Below are positions 9,978 through 25,279 of a stretch of DNA of 32,385 nt, one piece after another. The translations under genes were made by a program, and so were the position numbers. Numbering within the stretch: the first letter of the stretch is position 1; the number at the start of each line of letters is the position of its first letter. The notes below the pieces were generated by a model. That model searched no databases and had not been told where the DNA came from. It saw nothing but the letters and a program-made list of their open reading frames with translations. Where the stretch lies: contig OLMU01003354.1 in NCBI GenBank assembly GCA_900291995.1, positions 1 through 32,385 of the forward strand, read 5' to 3'. The DNA is from Licmophora abbreviata. Its lineage: Eukaryota.

Positions 9978-10050
9978 ATGTACATCACGAAAGAAGCCAT
10001 CTCAATTCACGTTTTGTGAAGAATTGACCGGCGGCGGCACAAAATCGCGA
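9978..10050 (+). repeat. Degenerate copy of the SGNH gene leader (11965-12046)
   Basis: atgtacatcacgaaagaagccatctcaattcacgttttg-tgaagaattg versus atgtacatcacaaaagaaactatctcagttcacgttttgatgaagaattg (45/50 columns by hand), then cggcacaaaatcgcga versus cggcacatcatcgcga. Confidence 0.85.
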
Positions 10051-11111: not shown

Positions 11112-11475
11112 GGGACGTTTATTGATCCCTTACCCACCCCAGACAACAATCGTGTACGATCCTGTAAGCTTATCTTTCTTCTTTCACAGTTTTCTCAGAC
11201 TCGAGTACCCATAAGAAGCAGCGGACGAACAAGCACAGTTTTTGTTATGGGAACAAGAACTAGCACGCGCATCACTATCAAGATCAACTGTGAGAAGGAA
11301 GGTTGTCAACAAGATGCTTCATACGAGTATGCATCCCGTTGATTGGATCATGTCGAGCATCACAATTCGGCAGGAGAAGAGGGTATACTGTCTGCACTCT
11401 CGGCGTCTGCGGGAGACGAGTATTCTCTTGACAATATACAATGCAATATCTATATACCGAAATTCAATCACAGGT

Positions 11476-11547
11476 ATGACTTCTCTCCAGCTCCACATGT
11501 GACCCCTCCTGGGACCGCGAAAGTGCGATTCGCTCATGTCGCCGTAA
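11476..11547 (+). pseudogene. Internally deleted fourth copy of the 8-Cys secreted protein gene
   Basis: The 5' part caggtATGacttctctccagctccac matches caggtATGatggctctcaagccccac (15905). It is fused to gtgacccctcctgggaccgcgaaa...tgcgattcgctcatg (VTPPGTAK...CDSLM), which matches the family C-terminus. About 330 bp are missing. Confidence 0.8.
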
Positions 11548-11823
11548 GCAGACAAGGAGTGAAGGATTCGGTTACAGAAAAAGCGAGCGACTGAACAAGT
11601 GAAGATTGGAGAGATAACATGGAAGTATCGTTACTCTACCATGGTGTTTTGTTGGGCGTTTAGTCGTGGGTAGTAAGAAGTTCATGATCAAAACTACGAA
11701 ATACATGCACCCTCGTTGTAGTCTATGCTTATCAACTTTCGCCCCAGCTGCGCGGCACTTAGTCTTCCACGCATTTCATGTTTATCTGTACATTTCGGCA
11801 AAGATTGCAAGAACCCTCGACAT

Positions 11824-11923
11824 CTACATTTCATCCGAGTCATACAGTAGCCCACTTCCAAGAAGACGCCGGAGCAGAGACTCAATCTCTTCCAGGTCTG
11901 CACAGTCCACCATCAATGAAGGC
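11824..11923 (-). pseudogene. Relic of the 3' end of the JmjC gene
   Basis: The minus strand reads PSLMVDCADLEEIESLLRRLLGSGLLYDSDEM*, versus PSLVDCADRNEIESLLCRLVGLGLLYGSEEM* at 19552-19647. No upstream coding homology is visible. Confidence 0.88.
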
Positions 11924-12045
11924 TTCGCGTCGTCGAGTCTCGTACTGCGCGAGCTCCTCCCACAATGTACATCACAAAAGAAACTATCTCAGTTCACGTT
12001 TTGATGAAGAATTGGATTCGAAATGATGACCGGCACATCATCGCG

Positions 12046-13988: not shown

Positions 13989-15225
13989 TCACGACAGTAG
14001 GTTCCCTGCGACAATCGAGCCAAAGACAATGGCGCCCACCGCGTGGTTGCTGCGAAATCGCGCAGCCAAGTTTTTAGGATCGTCCAGATCTGCCGTTTGT
14101 ATCTGCCACACGAGATGTGAGAAAGCAGCCGTGGTGCCTCCATAAAAGAGTGGAGATGACAGGTCCACGTGGTAGCCGGATGCCATCCAACCGAGCCATG
14201 ATATCGCGGCAAAGCCTTGGAGTATAGGTTTGGTGTTCTCACCAAAGTACAGTGCTGTCGATTTTAGTCCCAGCTTGGCATCATCCACCTTGTCCTGGTG
14301 AGCATATCTGAAACACGGAATGGACGCAAGCGAAGGAGTGAGAAACACACCCGCACTTTGTCCCTCCCGCGACCCCAACAATAACAGAGTCAACGTACAG
14401 TGTGTCATAGACTAGAGTCCATGTGATGCCCGATAGGTACAACGGTCCAACCGCCATGACATTCAGCGATCCATACGTCGCAGCCCATCCCATCAAGGCA
14501 CCCCAGTTGAAGGTCATGCCAAGCACGAGCTGTGGCCAGTTGGTATATCGCTTCATGAGCGGATATGCAACAACGAAGGGTAACGAGGCAGCACCAAGCT
14601 GAAAGCAGTAAAACGTGTGAGGGAGTGACACTAATACACCAAGTCCAGTCGAGAGCTGCAACGCCAAGAATCCCAGTGCTTGTCGCTGCGTCAGTTCTCC
14701 GCTCGCCAAGGGTCGGGTCGTGGTGCGTGTCACTCGTCGATCAAAATCTTGATCCCACATGTCGTTGATAGTACAACCTGCTCCGCGCATTACAAATGCA
14801 CCCACTCCGAACAGGGCGAGTAGACCTATATCTGGAAGAGTGTGCATCGGTGCTGCCAGGGCAGTGGACCACCAGCAAGGCCACAGAAGCAAAAAAGTTC
14901 CAATAGGCTTGTCCGCGCGGGCAAGACGAGCGTACGGCTGCCACCGAGCAGGCAAGTATTCGTCGACCCAAGTCACCATGGGAGGGTCGGATATTTGATA
15001 ACCCTGAACAGCCGTCGGCTTGCGATCTTCCAGTGGAGGGCCCTGCGATGACGACGACGACTGCTGTCGTGTAATCATCGCGTGATTTGACCCAGTGACT
15101 CGGACGACCCAATTTTTCCTTGAAACACATTCCGCACATAGTTTGAAACGATTTCCTCGGTAGAATGCTAATTCTACCATGCGTGTTCGCTGTGACAAGC
15201 TAAGAATGAGCCGTAGCGACGCCAT
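13989..15225 (-). CDS. COQ2: 4-hydroxybenzoate polyprenyltransferase, mitochondrial (2 exons, 381 aa)
   Basis: Motifs RADKPIGTFLLLWP, MRGAGCTINDMWDQDFDRRVTRTTTRPLASG, YPLMKR, FNWGALMGW and YDTLYAHQDKVDD. The last motif is restored by removing intron 14308-14398 (GTACGT...CAG, phase 2). Confidence 0.96.
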
Positions 15226-15909
15226 CGTTGTCCATCACAGGCCACACACTACGCAGTCTCGCGTCTCGTCACAGTATGTCGTGATGCATCAGAGTACGAG
15301 TAGGTGTGTGTTGAGTGTGCATGCGAGCTCCTCGCACGAGCTTTTCCCAAGTGGGATGTTGATGCGGTATATTTGACATACATGTCTGAAGAGATTATAA
15401 CAGCAGGCAGAAACGAGCATCTCGTGAGAGCAAAATGTCGACATTTTTTTCTCACAAAACACGGACGCTCACACGCAGCTGTGTCTTGCCATAACGCAAG
15501 ATCCATACGAGTCGTACGTCGCTGTACATGTACCATCTCGTTATGATCCAGGATCAATCGCGAGGAGACCGACTTTCAGATCGTAAACCTTCGTGTGATT
15601 GATAAAGTCAGAATCGTCATGCGGGAGAAAATCCAAAATACATCCCCTCGTACCAGGCATTCAAGCATACGAATCTGTCACGTGCTTACGAAACGTAATC
15701 ACGAGAGCCCGACTCATTGATTTCTATGTGCACATTCTACAAAAATTTAACAGCAGAGCCACATTGTTTGCGCAACGCTCTACATTCGTCCTTGTTTTGG
15801 TGAGTGTGGTGTCTTCTTGCCGCCAAAAGGATGAATCTTTCTACTGTGTCATAAATGATACATGTCGCTCATATAACCTTTGCTTTTCTGTCGTGCTATT
15901 GAGGCAGGT

Positions 15910-16314
15910 ATGATGGCTCTCAAGCCCCACCTCGTCCCTCTCTTGGCCCTCCTTCTCACCGGTTCGGTGGATGCCATTTGTTGCCTCAAGCAAGTGACAT
16001 CGAATGAGGCTCCGTTGGGACCACTTACGAACGGTACTGTCCCTGCTGGCTACTATGGATGTGCAAGTGAAGGGAATATGATCGGCTATGGCGAGATCAG
16101 GATCCCCAATCCAAAGCTCTGTACTGATACCTGTCCAGTTGTTGTCGATCCAACAAGTGGAGACGGGTACTACACCACTCCCGGCGCTAATAGCTGGACC
16201 GCAGTTGATCTAGAGTACCTGTGCTGTACCGAGCCGCCTCCGGTGACTCCTACCGGGAATGTGACAACGTGGCCGACGTGCGACTCGCTTATGTATTTGC
16301 GAGGTATGTCATGA
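15910..16314 (+). CDS. Small secreted 8-cysteine protein, copy 1 (134 aa)
   Basis: Signal peptide MMALKPHLVPLLALLLTGSVDA; CC-C-C-C-CC-C pattern; paralogous to 17336 and 18769; probable 5'UTR intron 15800-15907 (GTGAGT...CAG). Confidence 0.85.
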   Translation: MMALKPHLVPLLALLLTGSVDAICCLKQVTSNEAPLGPLTNGTVPAGYYGCASEGNMIGYGEIRIPNPKLCTDTCPVVVDPTSGDGYYTTPGANSWTAVDLEYLCCTEPPPVTPTGNVTTWPTCDSLMYLRGMS

Positions 16315-17335
16315 GACTCAAACCTCGTAAATGTTGAACCAATGAGCGAGAAAAGAATTGAAAGTCAAACGGCATGCTACTGTGGCGAACGAGTTAGTGT
16401 ATTGTTTAGGCAAAGTAGCGTCGTTGCAACTTGTGTAGTATTCATATCTTCTCTACAGTTGCTCCGATACACTGGTGACACAAGGAGCAATCTAACCGAA
16501 AAGCGAGCAACTGGACAGTGAGAGAATGAAAAGACAATGAGAAACATCGGTATGTTCTATTTAAGTACACAGTGTTCGTTGGGTGGTTCCTTGTTTTTGG
16601 AATCATAGACTAGAAAGGTTGCGACGAGAGTGGAACGTACCCCTTTATACGACCATGCGGATCGGAAGTGTGAGGAAACCCACTTCGTAAAAGAGCTACT
16701 ATCAGTCGCTGCTGTTGCAGAGAGAGCAACTGGGTCGTCCTGGTCCTCGCGTCTTGCGTGGAATGCGAGCTCCTTCCGCAAGCTATTATTTCTGTTTCGG
16801 GATGGCGAAAGGTCATAAGTAAAGTATACGACGCCATCTGATAGTGAAAAAAAACAGATCGAACGAGTGGGCGAAGCGAGAAACGCGAAACACAACGACG
16901 CGCATCAAGAACCATGGACGCTCACTCGTATTGCCAAAACGCAAGATACATACGATCCGTACGTCGCTGTGCATATGCAGTCTCGTTATGATGCGGAAAC
17001 TTTCGCGACGAGCCCGAATGCCAGATCTGAGAGAAGTGTGATGATCGTTGAACACGTTAGAATCACGCGGGAATAAATCGTCGCCGCTCCAGCAGTCGAC
17101 TCCGTCGTGTTCATCAAAGGTGAAGTTCTTGCGAAAGGTAATCACGAGCATCCGATGTAAATACACGGACTTCACCTATAATTTCGGTTGGCATCGTTCC
17201 CGCATTTTCCCGTATCGCTCTCCTTTTACATTCGTCGTTTGTCTGGTGAGTGTAGATTTTTCCGTCTTCCCACAAGGGAAACTCGATGCGTTACTCACAT
17301 CACCCTCTCTTTTCTCTCGCGCTATTGAGACAGGT

Positions 17336-17740
17336 ATGATGGCTCTCAAGCTCCTCCTCGTTCCCCTCTTGACCCTCCTTCTCACCGGTTCGGTGGATGC
17401 CATTTGTTGCCTCAAACAAGTGACTTCGACTCGACCCCCGACACCACGTACCGGCCCTGGCCTTGCAGGCCGTCCTAGGGGCTTTTATGGATGCGCAATT
17501 GAAGGGACGGTGATTGGTTATGGCGAGATCAGGACCCCCAATCCAAAGCTCTGTTCTGATACGTGTCCGTCCGTTGTCGCGCCAGGAAGTGGAGACGAGT
17601 TTTACACCACTCCCGGAGCTACTAACAGGAATCCAGTTGATCTCGAGTACCTGTGCTGTACCGATCCGCCTCCAGTGTCTCCTACGGGGACTGCGAAGAC
17701 GTGGCCGACGTGCGCCTCGCTGCTTCCAACTCTTCCGTAA
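17336..17740 (+). CDS. Small secreted 8-cysteine protein, copy 2 (134 aa)
   Basis: Same signal peptide and Cys framework (ICCLKQ, YGC, GYGEIR, LCSDTCP, DLEYLCC, TWPTC); probable 5'UTR intron 17246-17333; TATA-like ctataa near 17176. Confidence 0.85.
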   Translation: MMALKLLLVPLLTLLLTGSVDAICCLKQVTSTRPPTPRTGPGLAGRPRGFYGCAIEGTVIGYGEIRTPNPKLCSDTCPSVVAPGSGDEFYTTPGATNRNPVDLEYLCCTDPPPVSPTGTAKTWPTCASLLPTLP

Positions 17741-18768
17741 GAAACGTGGAGTTTGAGGAAACCTAACATGTGTAACACTGGCAGAGGCAACGAGCGAGAA
17801 AAAGTGAAAGTCAAACGGCCAGCGGTATGCTACTGTGGTGAATAAGTTTGTGTTTAGTATCATTGTTCCAGCTTTGAAGTGCGTAGAGCTACTCTAGAGT
17901 CGCTCGCTCCGATTACGGCGGTACCTCTATCCCCACTTTATACTCTGGCTATTCGTCGTCCGCATAGAAACGGGTTGCGGCGTACGGATGGCGTATTTCA
18001 GGAAGCCAGCCCTAAGAGACTGACTCCGGGATATGACATCGTGCACCATCATTTGGTCAGAAGAAGAGCGGTACAGACACGGGATTGCCACACCATTTTC
18101 GCATGTTAGAGGACGCAACGTCGATACGATACGATGCGCGCGAGTTTGCGCGATGAGATAGACGACCACATCTTGACATAAAACATTACGAGTATGTCAA
18201 GATGTGGTCGTCTATCATTGATCGCCGATTGCGACCAAACTCTCGTCGCGACGACGATGATGAGAATGAATCAATCGATATGCTCGCGGAACTAAAGGTG
18301 AACTGCAATAAGAATGCGAGATTCGATTCGCATGATATATCCTTGTGCCAGGATGTGTGCGTGATCCGTCGCGAGGAGCTCGGGGTCTTAAGTGCAACTA
18401 TGGGATGAAGAATCACGCGGGAACATAGTATGTCGCCCGCCCCACCCCCTACCTAGGATGCATGTAAGCGCCGCGATCTCACACCTCAGAGGATATGTCC
18501 GTTCTAAGAATTGTTTCTCGAGCATCTGATTCATGTAAGCTTCACCATATGGTATGACCTTCACCTGACTATTCGGTTGGCGTCTTTCACACACTCACAA
18601 TCTGCATTCGATCCAGCCAAGATCTGAAACAACAATCTAGACGGGTCTCCATAAAGCAGCAAGCTTCCATTGCCTAGTGAGTTCATTCTGCGCCGAGAGA
18701 TAAGTCTTGTGGTTGACCGTGGTCTGCTCATATTGTCACTTCTGCTCTGTCGTCCCTGTGTAATAGGT

Positions 18769-19168
18769 GTGATTTCTCTCAAGCTCTTCATCGTCCCTTT
18801 CTTGGCCCTTCTCTACTCGGGTTCGGCGGGTGCCGTTTGTTGCCTCAAACAAATGACTTCCACTGACCCTCCGACACCACGCTCTGGCCTTGGCGCTGCA
18901 AACGGTCCAAGAGGTTTTTATGGATGCCTAGCCGAAGGGGCAGTGATTGGTTATGGCGAGATCAGGACCCCATCCAAAGCTCTGTTCTGATACGTGTCCG
19001 TCCGTTGTCGCACCAGCAAGTGGAAACGAGTTTTACACCACTCCCGGAGCTACTCACGTGAATCCAGTTGATCTCGAGTACCTGTGCTGTACCGATCCGC
19101 CTCCAGTGTCTCCTACCGGGACTGCGAAAACGTGGCCGACGTGCAATTCGTTCATGCCACCAGTGTAG
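18769..19168 (+). pseudogene. 8-cysteine secreted protein copy 3 (start lost, frameshifted)
   Basis: ATG ATG is replaced by GTG ATT at 18769. A 2-bp deletion at about 18967-18973 (accccatcc versus acccccaatcc in copy 2) splits the gene into ORFs 18670 and 18947. All 8 Cys codons are still present. Confidence 0.8.
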
Positions 19169-19551
19169 GTACCTGTAGTGAAGAAACAAGTCCAATGGGC
19201 AAACGAGCGACTATACGGGTGAAGAAGAAAGACATACTCAGCAACTATCTGCACTCTGCCATGATGTATTGATGGGTACTTACTTGTATGCATAGGCGGT
19301 AAAAAAGTTTATGATTGAAACATTCAATAAAAAGTACGTAGATTGTCGCTGTATTATATGTCCAGCAACCCTTGCATTGACAGCAGCGTAACGAAAGCGC
19401 ATCGCTGCTTCTCGACCATTCAAGCAGTGGCGGACCCAGTCTTCCACGCATTTCATGCCGATGTCTCTAAAGTGCATACGTCTCATTCGATCGAGTGTGG
19501 CAGAATTGTGTGCCATGTCAGTGCACAGGTTCATGTAAACACCTTGGTCAT

Positions 19552-21099
19552 TTACATCTCTTCTGACCCGTACAGTAGCCCAAGTCCAACGAGACGACAG
19601 AGGAGAGACTCAATCTCGTTCCGGTCTGCACAATCTACCAATGAAGGTAGCAGCACATCCGACGTCAGAGCAGGTTCGTTCACAATGGCCGCAAGAATCT
19701 TAGACACGCCACCGCTCGTATCGGTCAGTTGGAGCTCAATCGTTTCTCCGTTGGCAAATAAACGGCAGATTTTTCCTTGAAGAACCGAGTATGCAAACGA
19801 TACCCCTTCCGCTCGAAACAACGCGCCGTTGCCGTTCAGAACTCTCTCGACTCCTCCCTTGCAGGAATGAGCTTCCGTCTCCTCTTCATCGCAATTCAAC
19901 GCAAAAGGGTAGTTGTCCCGAGGTCGGTTGGGCGCAGTGACGAGCTCTCCAACAAGTCGATCCAGCAGTGGGTCGTCTTTCAGAGCATGCTGCACAGCAT
20001 CCAACACCATGGTACGCATCTGCTCCCGTACTCGCGAGGTGAGACGCCCTTTCTCTGTACTGCCGTGGTGAAGGAACAGTTTCTCGTCCTGATATCGCCG
20101 TGTAGCCGAATTGTGTGTAGATTGCAGTAACTCCTGCGCCAATCGAGAACACAGATCCGCAGCCGACGGCGCCGTACACCCAACACTGAGCGTCATGCAA
20201 TCGTCCGACAGTGCCGTTCCACAGTGGACGTAGCGTGGAGGCAAGTACAAGGCGTCACCTGGTTGCAGTATATGGGGTGCAAGGGTTGGCGCGGCATTTT
20301 GCAATATCCGTACATCCAGCCCTTCGAGCAGATTGTCGTGCTCGTCTTGTACACTGAGTGGCTCGGCGCCAACGGACCACTCTCGCGTTCCCGCCATTTG
20401 AATCAAAAAGACATCGTAGTTATCAACATGAGGACCAATCCCGCCATTTTTACAAGCAATACTTATCTGTGCATCATCGCGCCTCCATCGTGGCAGAAAA
20501 CTAAATTCTTCATCCATCCAATCCGACAATGCTGGATAGAACTGTTCCACATCATTGACCACCAGTGTCCAAGCCGACGAAGCCGATGCCTCATGATTCA
20601 AGACGTCGTCTATTTCTTCCTCACAGAAGGGTCCAACTTGCAGTGTATAGGATGAGAGTCCCTCACTCGGAGTATGTCGAATCAGCCTCGTCACAGCATC
20701 GTCCTCCCACGCCAGTTCGACCACTTGTTCAAGGGAAGGCCAACTTTCAATGGGTGATTCCAGGAGTGTAGACGGGTCAAAGGCGTTTCGAATCAGCAAT
20801 GGTTTCGACTGCCAAGCCTCGCACGAACTAAAGAGCTTGGCAGAAAATGGTCCTTGAACTATTGGAATGGAGTCGCGTTGGTCGATGGATGACGGGGCAT
20901 CGTCGTGGCGCGCCTCCGGTTGTTGATGTAGGGACGACTTCCAGGGCCAACGTCTGTCTACGATGGCGCCCACTTCTCGCCATCCCCGTATTCTAGAAAC
21001 TGGCAAGAAAGTATAGGTGGCGTTTGGGATTAGGATGGCCGCACTGTAGACGACCACGAGAGCTGAACGGCCTCTGCAGCAGTGCGGTCGTTTCGCCAT
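19552..21099 (-). CDS. JmjC/cupin-4 2-oxoglutarate Fe(II) hydroxylase, RoxA/YcfD-like (515 aa), probable bipartite presequence
   Basis: Motifs WQSKPLLIR, WTLVVNDV, LPRWRRDDAQIS, GGIGPHVDNYDVFLIQMAGTREW (HxD) and LQPGDALYLPPRYVHCG (distal His) follow the bacterial YcfD pattern. The likely ATG is 21099. Confidence 0.88.
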   Translation of the reverse strand: MAKRPHCCRGRSALVVVYSAAILIPNATYTFLPVSRIRGWREVGAIVDRRWPWKSSLHQQPEARHDDAPSSIDQRDSIPIVQGPFSAKLFSSCEAWQSKPLLIRNAFDPSTLLESPIESWPSLEQVVELAWEDDAVTRLIRHTPSEGLSSYTLQVGPFCEEEIDDVLNHEASASSAWTLVVNDVEQFYPALSDWMDEEFSFLPRWRRDDAQISIACKNGGIGPHVDNYDVFLIQMAGTREWSVGAEPLSVQDEHDNLLEGLDVRILQNAAPTLAPHILQPGDALYLPPRYVHCGTALSDDCMTLSVGCTAPSAADLCSRLAQELLQSTHNSATRRYQDEKLFLHHGSTEKGRLTSRVREQMRTMVLDAVQHALKDDPLLDRLVGELVTAPNRPRDNYPFALNCDEEETEAHSCKGGVERVLNGNGALFRAEGVSFAYSVLQGKICRLFANGETIELQLTDTSGGVSKILAAIVNEPALTSDVLLPSLVDCADRNEIESLLCRLVGLGLLYGSEEM

Positions 21100-21273
21100 G
21101 GTGCAAGAGTCGATGACGGAAACAAAATCTAAAAGAATTGGATCTTTCCTCGCTGGCGAGGGACAGACCAAATAATCGATGCGGGATTTTAGTCGAAGCA
21201 GTCGAAATATCGTTCTGACGTCGGTCGCTCGTGTTTCATCAAAACAAACACCGCTTCGTCGTTGTCGTCCACC

Positions 21274-22263
21274 ATGGGCCATCATCACCAGTATCCGGAG
21301 CACCACACCGGTTACTCCTCTCCTCTCTCAACTGTCGCTGACCAATCATCGACGTCACCTTCCGAATATGTCTCTTTTTTCTGTGGCTTCCTTGCCGGAG
21401 TCGCTCAGGCTGGTCTGTTCAACCCCTACGACCGTGCGTTGTACCTAAGCGTCAAGCACAAGCGACGATTCCTTGAGGCAGCCAATTTTCGCACCCCATA
21501 CCAAGGGTTTCTACAGTCAGTGGGCGGAAGAGCCCTATCAGGGGGACTGTAAGTAAACTGTTTTGATTCGAGAGACATTTTGATTCAAGACGTGTCATAT
21601 GGTGGCGCGGGTCCTGCGTGTGCTTACACGACGCATTCTGCCCTCTCCCTCAGCTACTACCCTCTGGAGAACTTGTTTTGCAGCTGCGTACCAGACAGCG
21701 GAGGCCCATGGACAAAATTTGTAGCGGGGACTGCTGCTGGTGCCATGAATGCTCTTTTATTGAATCCTCTCTCTGCCCTCAAATACAAGACTTGGGGACG
21801 AGATGTAAGCCGTGGTATGAGGAAGGAAGCGCTCGACATGTACAATAAAGCCGGTCTTCGACCATTCTCCAACGGTCTTCATCCCACACTAGTGCGGGAT
21901 GTAGTGTTTGGGGGATGTTACACGTATCTGCGATATAAATGGCGACGAGACGACCATTCACTTGTCTGGGTCAGTGACATGGGGGCGGCGACGGTCGCGA
22001 CGATCGTGAGCGGACCCTTCAATTTGGCTCGCAATGTCCAGTACGCAACGCGTTCTCGCAAGGTAGCACCAACAATAAGGCACGTACTACGAAAGTTGGT
22101 GTATGATGTGTCGACGAAAGAGACAGGGTACGCAAAGTGGCGTCACGTGCAGAGTCGACTACGTATAGGTTGGGGGACCGCACGAGTCGCAGTCGGTATG
22201 GCGTTTGGACAGCTCCTGTACGACAGCTGTATGGATATCTTTCAGGTGGAAGATCCATTATGA
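21274..22263 (+). CDS. Divergent mitochondrial carrier (SLC25) family protein (2 exons, 294 aa)
   Basis: Three repeats with Pro-kink signatures NPYDRALY, NPLSALKY and GPFNLARN; PYQGF and GLHPTLVRDVVFGGCY; intron 21549-21653 (GTAAGT...CAG, phase 2). Confidence 0.85.
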
Positions 22264-23127: not shown

Positions 23128-23481
23128 GATGGAAGCGAAATGTATAAAAAGGGACAAGAGGACAGAGGAGGACCGAAAACGGGGCCCAACAACGGCGACA
23201 ACAGCAACGCTAATGAAACCTCTGCTGTTATGTTGTGTTTCTCGTGAGAGTTTGGTTGGTTGTGTGTTTGTGGCTGAAATCGACTATACGCCCCATAACC
23301 TATGTTAAGTCGAGAGAGTCAATTGGGTCGGGGAAGTCGAATCGTGTGCCGTTTGGAACGCGTCCGGCTCGCGCGGCATAGATGCCGAATTTTTCGTCTG
23401 CTTTCTTCTCTCATATTTTTTTCCCGCGCCCTCCTCATTGTTTTCCTTGTCGGTCGCCGCGCTGTCACTATGTTCGCCAAG

Positions 23482-24015
23482 ATGTTGTTCCGTTTCGCTG
23501 CCTTGCCGCTTCTTTTCCTGTCACTGGTCTCGGGAGATGCCGACGAAGACTGGTTCTATGCCTGCTCTGGTGGAAAAGTCAAGGAGGTCGAGCGGATGCT
23601 GAAGGAGCGTCCCAACTACTACCCCCACATAAGCACGCCCGAAGGCGAGACGTGCTTGCACTTGGCGTCCATTCCGGGCGACGAGGACATCACGGAAGCG
23701 GTTTTGAAGCTCGGAGCCAATCCAAATGTTAGGACCAAGTTTCAGGGAGGTCTCCGCATGCATCCATTGAGCTGGAACATCTACGCTGGCCACGTTGAGA
23801 ATGTACGTCTGCTCCTCAAATTCAATGCAAACCCGAATGCGGATGTCGATAGCAGGGAGGGAGGCGATCCTGTCACGATGCTGGACATAATTGAAGAGTT
23901 TCTTGCTGTTAACAAGGAAGACAGGAAGTTCCTCAAGATGCGTGATCTTGTTATTAAATTTGGAGGCAAGAAGTACATGGACCTTACCTTGGCTGAGAAG
24001 TCCCGTATCGTCTAA
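23482..24015 (+). CDS. Signal-peptide ankyrin-repeat protein, copy A (177 aa; alternative ATG 23470)
   Basis: Signal peptide MLFRFAALPLLFLSLVSG; ankyrin motifs GETCLHLA, LGANPN, HPLSWNIYAGHVENVRLLLKFNANPN. Confidence 0.88.
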   Translation: MLFRFAALPLLFLSLVSGDADEDWFYACSGGKVKEVERMLKERPNYYPHISTPEGETCLHLASIPGDEDITEAVLKLGANPNVRTKFQGGLRMHPLSWNIYAGHVENVRLLLKFNANPNADVDSREGGDPVTMLDIIEEFLAVNKEDRKFLKMRDLVIKFGGKKYMDLTLAEKSRIV

Positions 24016-24447
24016 ATGGCGCGATCCATGTTTATTAATCCTAGTTTGTCCTGGAGTGATTCATTCAGCGGTTGTAGCATGCACTATGACCGTGATACGA
24101 TCGAACGAGAGGCAGGACGAGTTCTAGAAGGCGTGAGACAAGCAGCAAGAAGCATTCCTACCGGGAAAGTAAACGTTAGGTTGGTGTGTCCGTTCCTAGA
24201 ACATGACCATCTTCACGTTCCATAAGGCCGTAAGAACGATGGTTGTAGAGTGATTCTCTTCTTTAGACTAAAATATAAGTATGTGTAGCCCCCAATCCCG
24301 CCAAGCAAGGGGCGGGTTTTCTTTGTTCTTACGATTAAGGCGCGTGCCGCGCGGTCTAAAGCCGCCGACAGCCGTCGTCGCCGTCGCCGCCGCAAGAACA
24401 AACTCATTCATTTTTCACGGTCGTCGCTGCCATTTTGTTTGACTAAA

Positions 24448-24981
24448 ATGTTGTTCCGTTCCGCTGCCTTGCCGCTTCTTTTCCTTTCGTTGGTCTCTGG
24501 TGATGCCGATGAAGACTGGTTCTTCGCTTGCTCCGGTGGAAAAATCAAGGAGGTCGATCAGATGCTGAAGGAGCGTCCAGACTACTACCCTCACATTACT
24601 ACTCCCGAAGGCGAGTCGTGCTTGCATCTAGCCTCCATTCCGGGCGATGCGGACGTCACGGAAGCGGTCTTGGAGCTCGGAGCCAATCCAAATGTCAGGA
24701 CCAAGTTTCAGGGAGGTCTTCGCATGCACCCGTTGAGCTGGAACATTTACGCTGGCCACGTCGAGAATGTGCGCTTGTTGCTCAAATTTGGAGCCAACCC
24801 CAACGCAGATGTCGACAGCAAGGAGGGCGGCGATCCTGTGACGATGCTGGACATTATTGATGAGTACCTCGCGGTCAACAAGGAAGACAGGAAGTTCCTC
24901 AAGATGCGTGATCTTGTGCTTAAATTTGGAGGCAAGAAGTACATGGACCTCACATTGGCAGACAAGTCTCGTATCGTCTGA
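24448..24981 (+). CDS. Signal-peptide ankyrin-repeat protein, copy B (177 aa)
   Basis: Tandem paralog of 23482-24015 with a 966 bp offset, no indels and 17 aa differences by hand count. Confidence 0.88.
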   Translation: MLFRSAALPLLFLSLVSGDADEDWFFACSGGKIKEVDQMLKERPDYYPHITTPEGESCLHLASIPGDADVTEAVLELGANPNVRTKFQGGLRMHPLSWNIYAGHVENVRLLLKFGANPNADVDSKEGGDPVTMLDIIDEYLAVNKEDRKFLKMRDLVLKFGGKKYMDLTLADKSRIV

Positions 24982-25279
24982 ACCGCGCGACGATTCTTTC
25001 GTTGGTCCCTCCGCTCCTGAACCGGAGCTAGGTGTGTCGCGATGAAAGGACTTCGCCCAGTGTTACTAGATCTTATTAACCCGTGTTAAGAAAGAGCAAA
25101 GCGCAGTATATCTTAGCAGCAGTACAAGGTTGTCGCGCCCATTTCGTGAAGCCACAATTTGAGCAGTGATCTCTCCACGTGTGCTACAGCCCACCGCGAG
25201 GTCTATAGTAGACTGTGTAGTAAAGAATCTGACCTACCAATTGTTACAAACTACTTTTGACCTGTCTGAAAAGAGGGTC

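What the first reader, a model, noticed from the sequence alone, without database searches (positions are those of the whole stretch)
15910..19168. Unrecognised family of secreted 8-Cys proteins undergoing birth-and-death evolution
Seen: three tandem copies plus a relic; a signal peptide; a mature protein of about 112 aa with an invariant CC-C-C-C-CC-C frame and conserved IGYGEIR, YTTPGA, VDLEYLCC and TWPTC. I recognise no family. Inference: a disulfide-stabilised extracellular module with turnover typical of recognition, defence, mating, adhesion or cell-wall proteins. It is the best candidate for an undescribed system in this window.
Basis: partly seen in the sequence, partly recalled or inferred. 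Interest (0 to 1): 0.75.

Follow-up and report, generated by a model that had tools for sequence, protein, structure and literature searches.

The report
Diatom orphan secreted cysteine-protein array
A diatom carries two intact and three dead copies of a small, probably secreted protein with eight cysteines that matches nothing in the databases searched; the gene turnover is real, but what the protein does is untested, and such orphan arrays are common in diatoms.

Summary
Two intact 134-aa paralogs (70% identical) have a signal-peptide-like start and a CC-C-C-C-CC-C mature domain. A third copy lost its ATG and is frameshifted. A relic lies at 11470 and a fifth, decayed copy on another contig. 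The host is a diatom.

Purifying selection is modest (dN/dS 0.52, P=0.012), and non-coding blocks are conserved, so the genes are probably real. Expression could not be checked. Birth-and-death holds, with one addition: copy 2 is a mosaic, copy-1-like in flanks and signal but 92% identical to copy 3 in the mature core (permutation p<1e-4). That points to gene conversion, and it weakens 'invariance' as evidence.

No homologue was found in Pfam, NCBIfam, PHROGs, PDB, the 5.8-billion and 1.84-billion protein sets, the Atlas or the contig scans, but this organism seems absent from the protein collection. Structure prediction failed (pLDDT 36-38). Hydrophobin, PAN/apple, WSC, frustulin, adhesive-trail and PcF membership tests were not met. 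Positive selection was not detected.

Best reading: a lineage-restricted extracellular binding module. This scan noted a different diatom Cys-rich array before; no sequence link was found.

The parts
15910..16314 (+). Copy 1, intact CDS, 134 aa; signal-peptide-like residues 1-22; acidic mature domain (pI 4.1) with two N-glycosylation sequons
17336..17740 (+). Copy 2, intact CDS, 134 aa; mature domain pI 7.7, no sequon; mosaic (copy-1-like 5' part, copy-3-like mature core)
18769..19168 (+). Copy 3, pseudogene as assembled: start codon reads GTG, 2-nt deletion near 18970, all 8 Cys codons still present
11470..11549 (+). Relic: start region joined to the 3' tail of the gene, middle of the CDS deleted
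11550..11922 (+). Flank co-duplicated with the relic: matches the 3' flank of copy 3 and the last ~100 nt of the JmjC gene (11813-11922 vs 19541-19647, 77%)
15800..15907 (+). Candidate 5'-UTR intron of copy 1 (GTGAGT donor; AG at 15903 or 15907); splicing not shown
17246..17333 (+). Candidate 5'-UTR intron of copy 2 (GTGAGT donor; AG at 17329 or 17333); splicing not shown
18677..18766 (+). Candidate 5'-UTR intron of copy 3; removing it brings no in-frame ATG
15483..15582 (+). Conserved upstream non-coding block of copy 1 (79% to 16928-17027), candidate promoter element
16928..17027 (+). Conserved upstream non-coding block of copy 2
16340..16400 (+). Conserved downstream block of copy 1 (78% to 17788-17853), candidate 3'-UTR element
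17788..17853 (+). Conserved downstream block of copy 2
17410..17716 (+). Inferred gene-conversion tract shared by copy 2 and copy 3 (breakpoint between 17402 and 17416)
19552..21285 (-). Neighbour: JmjC_2 / ROXA-like gene; no functional link shown
14281..15225 (-). Neighbour: UbiA-family prenyltransferase, main exon; no functional link shown

Best explanation
A lineage-restricted family of small secreted, disulfide-stabilised, non-enzymatic binding proteins of a diatom.

Inferred route: each gene is transcribed from a conserved upstream block, a ~90-105-nt 5' intron is removed, the 22-residue signal is cleaved after VDA, four disulfides form in the ER, and the ~12-kDa domain is released to the cell surface or mucilage. 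There it binds an outside ligand, most likely a glycan or a surface molecule of the biofilm or of associated bacteria. The conserved Gly/aromatic motifs would form the scaffold. The Pro/Gly loop at residues ~32-48 and the surface charge (pI 4.1 vs 7.7) would tune binding.

History read from the sequence: a ~1.44-kb unit duplicated to give copies 1 and 2. The copy-3 locus duplicated together with the end of the JmjC gene to give the relic. Conversion then made the mature cores of copies 2 and 3 nearly the same, and copy 3, now redundant, was inactivated.

Shown: copies, lesions, mosaicism, modest purifying selection, no detectable homologue. Inferred: expression, splicing, secretion, disulfides, direction and order of events, and binding function.
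For: Coding constraint: two 134-codon ORFs are kept. The bins 16050-16249 have 0 gap columns and 82-84% identity, against 54-59% in unconserved flank bins and 55% for a shuffled control. dN/dS is 0.52 (Fisher P=0.012) and 0.44 in the core (P=0.02).

Targeting: the only hydrophobic stretch is N-terminal, followed by V-x-A; there is no ER-retention signal. An even number of Cys is kept in 3 of 3 full-length copies, and CC and YTTP are kept in the distant C3353 fragment.

Regulation: conserved non-coding blocks lie up- and downstream (79-80% vs background), and an intron-like GTGAGT..AG is present in 3 of 3 copies.

History: copy 2 matches copy 1 in 115/129 nt at the 5' end but copy 3 in 92/129; in the core it matches copy 3 in 211/229 and copy 1 in 193/231. 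Max-chi 38, reached by 0 of 10000 permutations. Flanks pair copy 1 with 2 (z 9.5 and 20.8) and copy 3 with the relic (z 11.5).

No enzyme family matches.
Against: There is no expression, localisation or ligand data, and no usable structure (pLDDT 38 and 36). The binding role rests on analogy with other small secreted Cys-rich proteins.

The selection signal is modest. The counting method ignores transition bias, several regions were tested, core differences by codon position are 7/15/19, and the comparisons with copy 3 are not significant (P 0.10-0.29 for whole and core). There is no sign of positive selection.

Three of five copies are dead, which also fits a dispensable family in decline. 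Secretion was not run through a trained predictor.
Confidence: 0.45

Rival explanations
1. A structural component of the organic coat, mucilage or adhesive trail, acting as a cross-linked or glycosylated filler and not as a specific binder.
For: P+T+S+G make up 41-46% of the mature protein. Diatom trail proteins are PTS-rich, contain Cys-rich repeats and are often species-specific (10.1101/2023.03.06.531300, passages). Frustulins and pleuralins are Cys-rich wall proteins (PMC4557024, passages).
Against: Those proteins are large, repetitive and modular; this is a single 112-aa domain with no GDPH or RXL motif, few Lys and only 7-9% D+E. Pfam gave no CAA or other hit.
Confidence: 0.2
2. A proteinaceous sexual signal or mate-recognition ligand, comparable in kind to MRP1 of Pseudo-nitzschia.
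For: MRP1 is an unannotated, signal-peptide-bearing, taxonomically narrow, mating-type-biased protein (PMC6261938, passages). Sex-induced genes with high piN/piS in Seminavis are mostly of unknown function (PMC7335047 section 8). No homologue was found here.
Against: MRP1 and those genes show signs of positive selection; here dN/dS is below 1. No mating-related gene was noted beside the array. MRP1 could not be compared by sequence.
Confidence: 0.13
3. A remote, rewired PAN/apple- or WSC-type carbohydrate-binding fold. This is compatible with the best explanation and would make it a variant of a known module.
For: GY-x-x-I...C-x3-C resembles the start of PAN modules (recalled). The best hhalign match to a bacterial PAN_4 profile falls exactly there, but is weak (16 columns, probability 0.6%, E 0.09).
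Against: Against a 33-sequence PAN_4 profile, 396 of 1000 (copy 1) and 193 of 1000 (copy 2) Cys-fixed shuffles score as well or better, while a PAN domain from the same genome is matched by 1 of 1000. The third PAN Cys, 4-7 residues after C-x3-C, is missing. hhalign to that own-genome PAN domain scored below 146 of 150 shuffles. Pfam gave no hit at E<=10.
Confidence: 0.15
4. An antimicrobial or anti-grazer defence peptide.
For: It is small, secreted-looking and Cys-rich, with tandem turnover. Oomycete PcF/SCR74 show that stramenopiles use such proteins in biotic conflict (PMC7327169, passages).
Against: It is not cationic (pI 4.1 and 7.7), not hydrophobic (GRAVY -0.1, -0.24) and shows no diversifying selection. 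There is no PcF Pfam hit.
Confidence: 0.1
5. A dispensable family in decay: copies 1 and 2 are barely expressed, and the array is ordinary local duplication debris. The lesions in copy 3 might also be assembly errors.
For: Three of five copies are dead. A second, unrelated tandem pair lies in the same window. Tandem duplicates are numerous and less constrained in Seminavis.
Against: Purifying selection, frame retention and conserved flanking blocks between copies 1 and 2. Copy 3 has two separate lesions about 200 nt apart, which makes a single assembly error unlikely.
Confidence: 0.1

Closest known systems
Small secreted cysteine-rich proteins of stramenopiles, e.g. oomycete PcF/SCR74 (Pfam PF09461; PMC7327169)
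   Same: Small, signal peptide, 6-8 conserved Cys around a variable loop, multi-copy with pseudogenes.
   Different: No sequence or Pfam match. PcF is 73 aa against 134 aa here, the Cys spacing differs, the host is a diatom, and positive selection is reported for SCR74 but not detected here.
Fungal hydrophobins (PMC3020181)
   Same: About 100-200 aa, secreted, eight Cys with two CC pairs.
   Different: Their order is C-CC-C-C-CC-C with 5-8 residues before the second CC; here it is CC-C-C-C-CC-C with 29. The mature protein has no strong hydrophobic patch.
PAN/apple (PF00024, PF14295) and WSC (PF01822) modules
   Same: Extracellular Cys modules with a C-x3-C pair preceded by a Gly/Tyr strand.
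   Different: The third core Cys is absent, and the profile score is no better than Cys-fixed shuffles while a positive control passes.
Diatom frustulins (ACR domains), pleuralins (PSCD domains) and adhesive-trail proteins (GDPH, CAA, six-Cys repeats)
   Same: Diatom extracellular proteins rich in Cys and Pro/Thr/Ser.
   Different: Those are large, repeated and modular, and often acidic; this is one short domain without their motifs.
MRP1 of Pseudo-nitzschia multistriata (PMC6261938)
   Same: Diatom protein with a signal peptide, unknown function and narrow taxonomic range.
   Different: MRP1 is mating-type-biased and under positive selection. Sequences were not compared, and no expression data exist here.

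Membership tests
Small secreted cysteine-rich proteins (operational class) | Short, N-terminal signal peptide, no other membrane segment or retention signal, several conserved Cys | tested here: met
   134 aa, 8 Cys, single N-terminal hydrophobic stretch with V-x-A, no K/H/DDEL; signal judged by hydropathy, not by a trained predictor
Small secreted cysteine-rich proteins (operational class) | Actual secretion and disulfide formation | not testable with these tools
   needs proteomics or a tagged protein
Birth-and-death multigene family | Intact and dead paralogs of different ages side by side | tested here: met
   2 intact, 1 recently broken, 2 decayed
Birth-and-death multigene family | Independent divergence of paralogs without homogenisation | tested here: not met
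   copy 2/copy 3 conversion tract, 0 of 10000 permutations; flank pairing differs from core pairing
Hydrophobins | Cys order C-CC-C-C-CC-C with 5-8 residues before the second CC | tested here: not met
   pattern from PMC3020181; observed spacing; no regex match
Hydrophobins | Self-assembly at interfaces | not testable with these tools
   a bench property
PAN/apple (PF00024, PF14295) | Profile match and core C-x3-C-x(4-7)-C...C | tested here: not met
   spacing range recalled, and consistent with the alignment printed
PAN/apple (PF00024, PF14295) | PAN fold | tested here: inconclusive
   models at pLDDT 36-38; Foldseek and VIA searches on them carry no weight
WSC (PF01822) | Profile match; GC...C-x3-C...C-x-C | tested here: not met
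   no Pfam hit; no C-x-C (pattern recalled); hhalign to one bacterial WSC domain gave probability 0.2%
Frustulins | Multiple ~50-aa acidic Cys-rich (ACR) domains, 30-200 kDa | tested here: not met
   definition from PMC4557024; single ~12-kDa domain, D+E 7-9%, no CxGDCD (motif recalled)
Pleuralins | Repeats of the 90-aa PSCD domain after a Pro-rich N-terminus | tested here: not met
   single domain, only 6 Ser and 4-5 Asp; no direct sequence comparison was possible
Diatom adhesive-trail proteins | GDPH or CAA domain in a modular PTS-rich protein | tested here: not met
   no GDPH, no Pfam hit; definition
PcF/SCR74 (PF09461) | PcF domain; positive selection in SCR74 | tested here: not met
   no Pfam hit; dN/dS < 1 between copies 1 and 2
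MRP1-like sexual signals | Sequence homology and mating-type-biased expression | not tested
   neither the MRP1 sequence nor RNA data were at hand

The most novel reading that the evidence does not exclude
The mature domain is a new four-disulfide fold and the first member of a class of diatom protein ligands for recognising mates or bacteria. Its specificity is reshuffled by gene conversion, which puts one paralog's mature domain behind another's promoter and signal peptide.
Probability: 0.12. Interest if true: 0.7.

Novelty: new member of a known kind. Interest (0 to 1): 0.3.

Why it matters
Proteins that diatoms use to recognise mates and bacteria, or to build mucilage, are poorly known, and many candidates are unannotated secreted orphans. 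This array offers a small, tractable protein with an unplaced Cys framework and a readable history of duplication, conversion and loss. Its value is limited for now: it is seen in one genome only, with no structure, expression or ligand, and species-specific tandem families of secreted proteins are already a recognised feature of diatom genomes.

Tried and rejected
Homologue searches, all blank:
- Pfam, NCBIfam and PHROGs at E<=10: 0 families for 2 of 2 mature proteins (Pfam on the full ORFs).
- 5.8-billion set: 0 of 70 candidates for copy 2, 0 of 517 for the alignment at E<=10, 0 of 121 among longer proteins.
- 1.84 billion representatives: 0 at E<=0.001.
- PDB sequences: 0 at E<=10. ESM Atlas: no usable hit, twice.
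- Contig scans: metagenome 0 of 158 and 0 of 75 pattern matches confirmed, viral 0 of 14, prokaryote genomes 0 of 126.
- Exact look-up: 0 of 5 sequences, including the conserved NSA2-like neighbour used as a control. The organism is probably not in that collection, so the blanks overstate novelty.

More copies in the own genome: protein, DNA and three motif searches found only the window copies and C3353. The 16 other motif matches (1, 15) were at chance level and none scored with the family profile (best E 1.4).

Structure: two AlphaFold2 runs with 4-5 sequences gave pLDDT 38 and 36 and disagreed on secondary structure. Foldseek found nothing at E<=0.001 and VIA nothing at Z>=2; these are uninformative. 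Homodimer prediction gave no verdict.

Expression: no RNA holder was listed, so no reads could be laid.

PAN/WSC idea: tested and not supported. WSC was not found in the own genome, but that search rang in no control either.

Rescue of copy 3 by an upstream ATG after splicing: none in frame. The branch count for copy 3 (6 synonymous, 15 non-synonymous changes) first looked like neutral decay. I dropped it, because most of the changes lie in the unconverted signal region and reflect older divergence.

Plastid targeting was set aside because residue +1 is Ile, not F/W/Y/L (rule recalled, not run).

Literature: nine searches showed no paper on this family. They are word searches and cannot exclude an unnamed entry in supplements, which I did not open.
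Full report
VERDICT. The array is real and the family has no detectable relative, but nothing here shows a function. It is best filed as a new, lineage-restricted member of a familiar kind, small secreted cysteine-rich proteins, with a clear record of duplication, gene conversion and loss.

OBSERVATION. Copy 1 (15910-16314) and copy 2 (17336-17740) are intact 134-codon ORFs, 70% identical. Each starts with a short basic, then hydrophobic, stretch ending in V-D-A. That is the only strongly hydrophobic segment; no trained signal predictor was available. The remaining 112 residues carry eight Cys spaced CC-x25/27-C-x19-C-x3-C-x29-CC-x17-C. Copy 1 is acidic (pI 4.1, two N-glycosylation sequons) and copy 2 near neutral (pI 7.7, none). 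They differ most in a Pro/Gly loop at residues ~32-48 (19 of 51 nt identical). Copy 3 (18769-19168) keeps all eight Cys codons, but its start reads GTG and a 2-nt deletion near 18970 ends the frame after three Cys.

RELICS AND HOST. The relic is at 11470-11549. It consists of the start region fused to the 3' tail, followed by the copy-3 flank and about 100 nt of the neighbouring JmjC gene's end, so it comes from a duplication of the copy-3 locus. A fifth, heavily decayed copy lies on G000:C3353 (E 2.1e-9; it keeps YTTP and VDLxYLCC and stops before the last Cys). Protein, DNA and motif searches of the 29-Mb assembly found no other copy; the tool gives lower bounds, and the assembly is in 7734 contigs. 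The host is a diatom: silicon-transporter matches reach E 2.5e-212.

ARE THE GENES REAL? Probably. Between copies 1 and 2, dN/dS is 0.52 (P=0.012) and 0.44 in the core (P=0.02). Coding bins are 82-84% identical, with no gaps in 16050-16249, while unconserved flank bins are at 54-59% and a shuffled control at 55%. Non-coding blocks about 400 nt upstream and just downstream stay at 79-80%. All three tandem copies have GTGAGT 84-108 nt before an AG that sits just ahead of the start, as expected of a 5'-UTR intron. Against this, the selection test is simple and modest, the comparisons with copy 3 are not significant, and no RNA run was listed, so expression is untested.

HISTORY. Flanks pair copy 1 with copy 2 (z 9.5 downstream, 20.8 upstream) and copy 3 with the relic (z 11.5). 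The coding region switches partner. Up to about 17410, copy 2 matches copy 1 in 115/129 nt and copy 3 in 92/129. In the core it matches copy 3 in 211/229 and copy 1 in 193/231. No permutation of 10000 reached the observed break. Synonymous distance agrees: copies 2-3 are at 0.11 in the core and 0.33 in the signal region. Gene conversion or unequal crossover is the simplest cause. The relic's tail is closer to copies 2 and 3 than to copy 1 (39, 40 and 35 of 51 nt). That hints that the copy-3 type overwrote copy 2 and left copy 3 redundant before it died; direction and order are inferred from few sites. The practical consequence is that the 'invariant' motifs reflect about two independent lineages plus one fragment.

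HOMOLOGUES AND FOLD. None was found in Pfam, NCBIfam, PHROGs, PDB sequences, the 5.8-billion and 1.84-billion protein sets, the ESM Atlas, or metagenome, viral and prokaryote contigs. A conserved neighbour was also absent from the exact look-up. The organism is therefore probably not in that collection, and I did not verify which diatom proteomes it holds; short genes are also often left unannotated (own knowledge). Both AlphaFold2 models were unusable (pLDDT 38 and 36), so the empty fold searches say nothing.

THE PAN/WSC LEAD. I built a profile from 33 bacterial PAN_4 matches, those of the 38 listed that lay in fetched loci with enough flank. A PAN domain from the same diatom genome passed (1 of 1000 Cys-fixed shuffles scored as high). 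Copies 1 and 2 did not (396 and 193 of 1000). The best profile-profile match covered only the C-x3-C region (probability 0.6%). Membership is not supported, though a remote fold likeness remains open.

HOW IT MOST LIKELY WORKS. A secreted four-disulfide module without a recognisable catalytic family, acting by binding a glycan or surface molecule at the cell surface or in mucilage, with the loop and charge differences tuning the two paralogs (0.45). Rivals are a structural mucilage or wall component (0.2), a remote PAN-like lectin (0.15, overlapping the best reading), a sexual signal (0.13), a defence peptide (0.1) and a decaying dispensable family (0.1). No region of copy 1 versus copy 2 has dN/dS above 1, so an arms-race reading lacks support.

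KNOWN CONTEXT. Hydrophobins have a different Cys order (PMC3020181, passages). Frustulins and pleuralins are built of repeated domains (PMC4557024, passages). Trail proteins carry GDPH or CAA domains, and several are species-specific (10.1101/2023.03.06.531300, passages). PcF/SCR74 are similar in kind but not in sequence family (PMC7327169, passages). MRP1 is a secreted orphan tied to mating type (PMC6261938, passages). The passages seen in a pheromone review (PMC12352721) describe the diatom pheromones as peptides and did not mention such a protein.

BASE RATE. Seminavis has 4594 tandem duplicates; tandem-driven expansions are largely species-specific, and tandem copies are less constrained (PMC7335047, passages and section 8). 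Four diatoms have 596-998 predicted secreted proteins each, with species-specific groups and unknown-function proteins among the most enriched in Nitzschia putrida (10.1101/2021.01.24.427197, passages and section 9). An orphan secreted array is therefore expected in such a genome. Nine word searches showed no paper on this family; supplements were not opened and could list it unnamed.

SCORES. Interest 0.3; novelty: new member of a known kind. The boldest reading not excluded is a new fold serving as a diatom recognition ligand reshuffled by conversion: probability 0.12, interest 0.7.

Noticed in passing
window 18157-18216: Perfect 24-bp inverted repeat with a 12-nt spacer between copies 2 and 3; single copy in the assembly; no role assigned.
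   Followed up: partly
window 23434-24024 and 24403-24990: A second tandem pair, 85% identical, encoding signal-peptide-bearing proteins that look ankyrin-like by eye.
   Followed up: no
window 9978-10026 and 11965-12014: A 50-nt duplicate at 90% identity next to the relic's duplicated block.
   Followed up: no
window 16304-16458: GTATGT...TCTCTACAG near the stop of copy 1, and GTAAG at the stops of copy 2 and the relic, could be splice sites that change the last residues or the 3' UTR; no RNA data.
   Followed up: no
L028 (G000:C5026): A bacterial contig in the diatom assembly: ABC permease 99% identical to a Roseovarius protein, i.e. co-sequenced bacterium.
   Followed up: partly
L027 1-1938 minus (G000:C4328): A diatom gene with an N-terminal PAN domain followed by a long Ser/Pro/Thr/Ala stalk, mucin-like.
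   Followed up: partly
G000:C845:1790-6079: Three silicon-transporter domains in a row on one contig.
   Followed up: no
window 15424-15455: Short imperfect palindrome upstream of copy 1.
   Followed up: no
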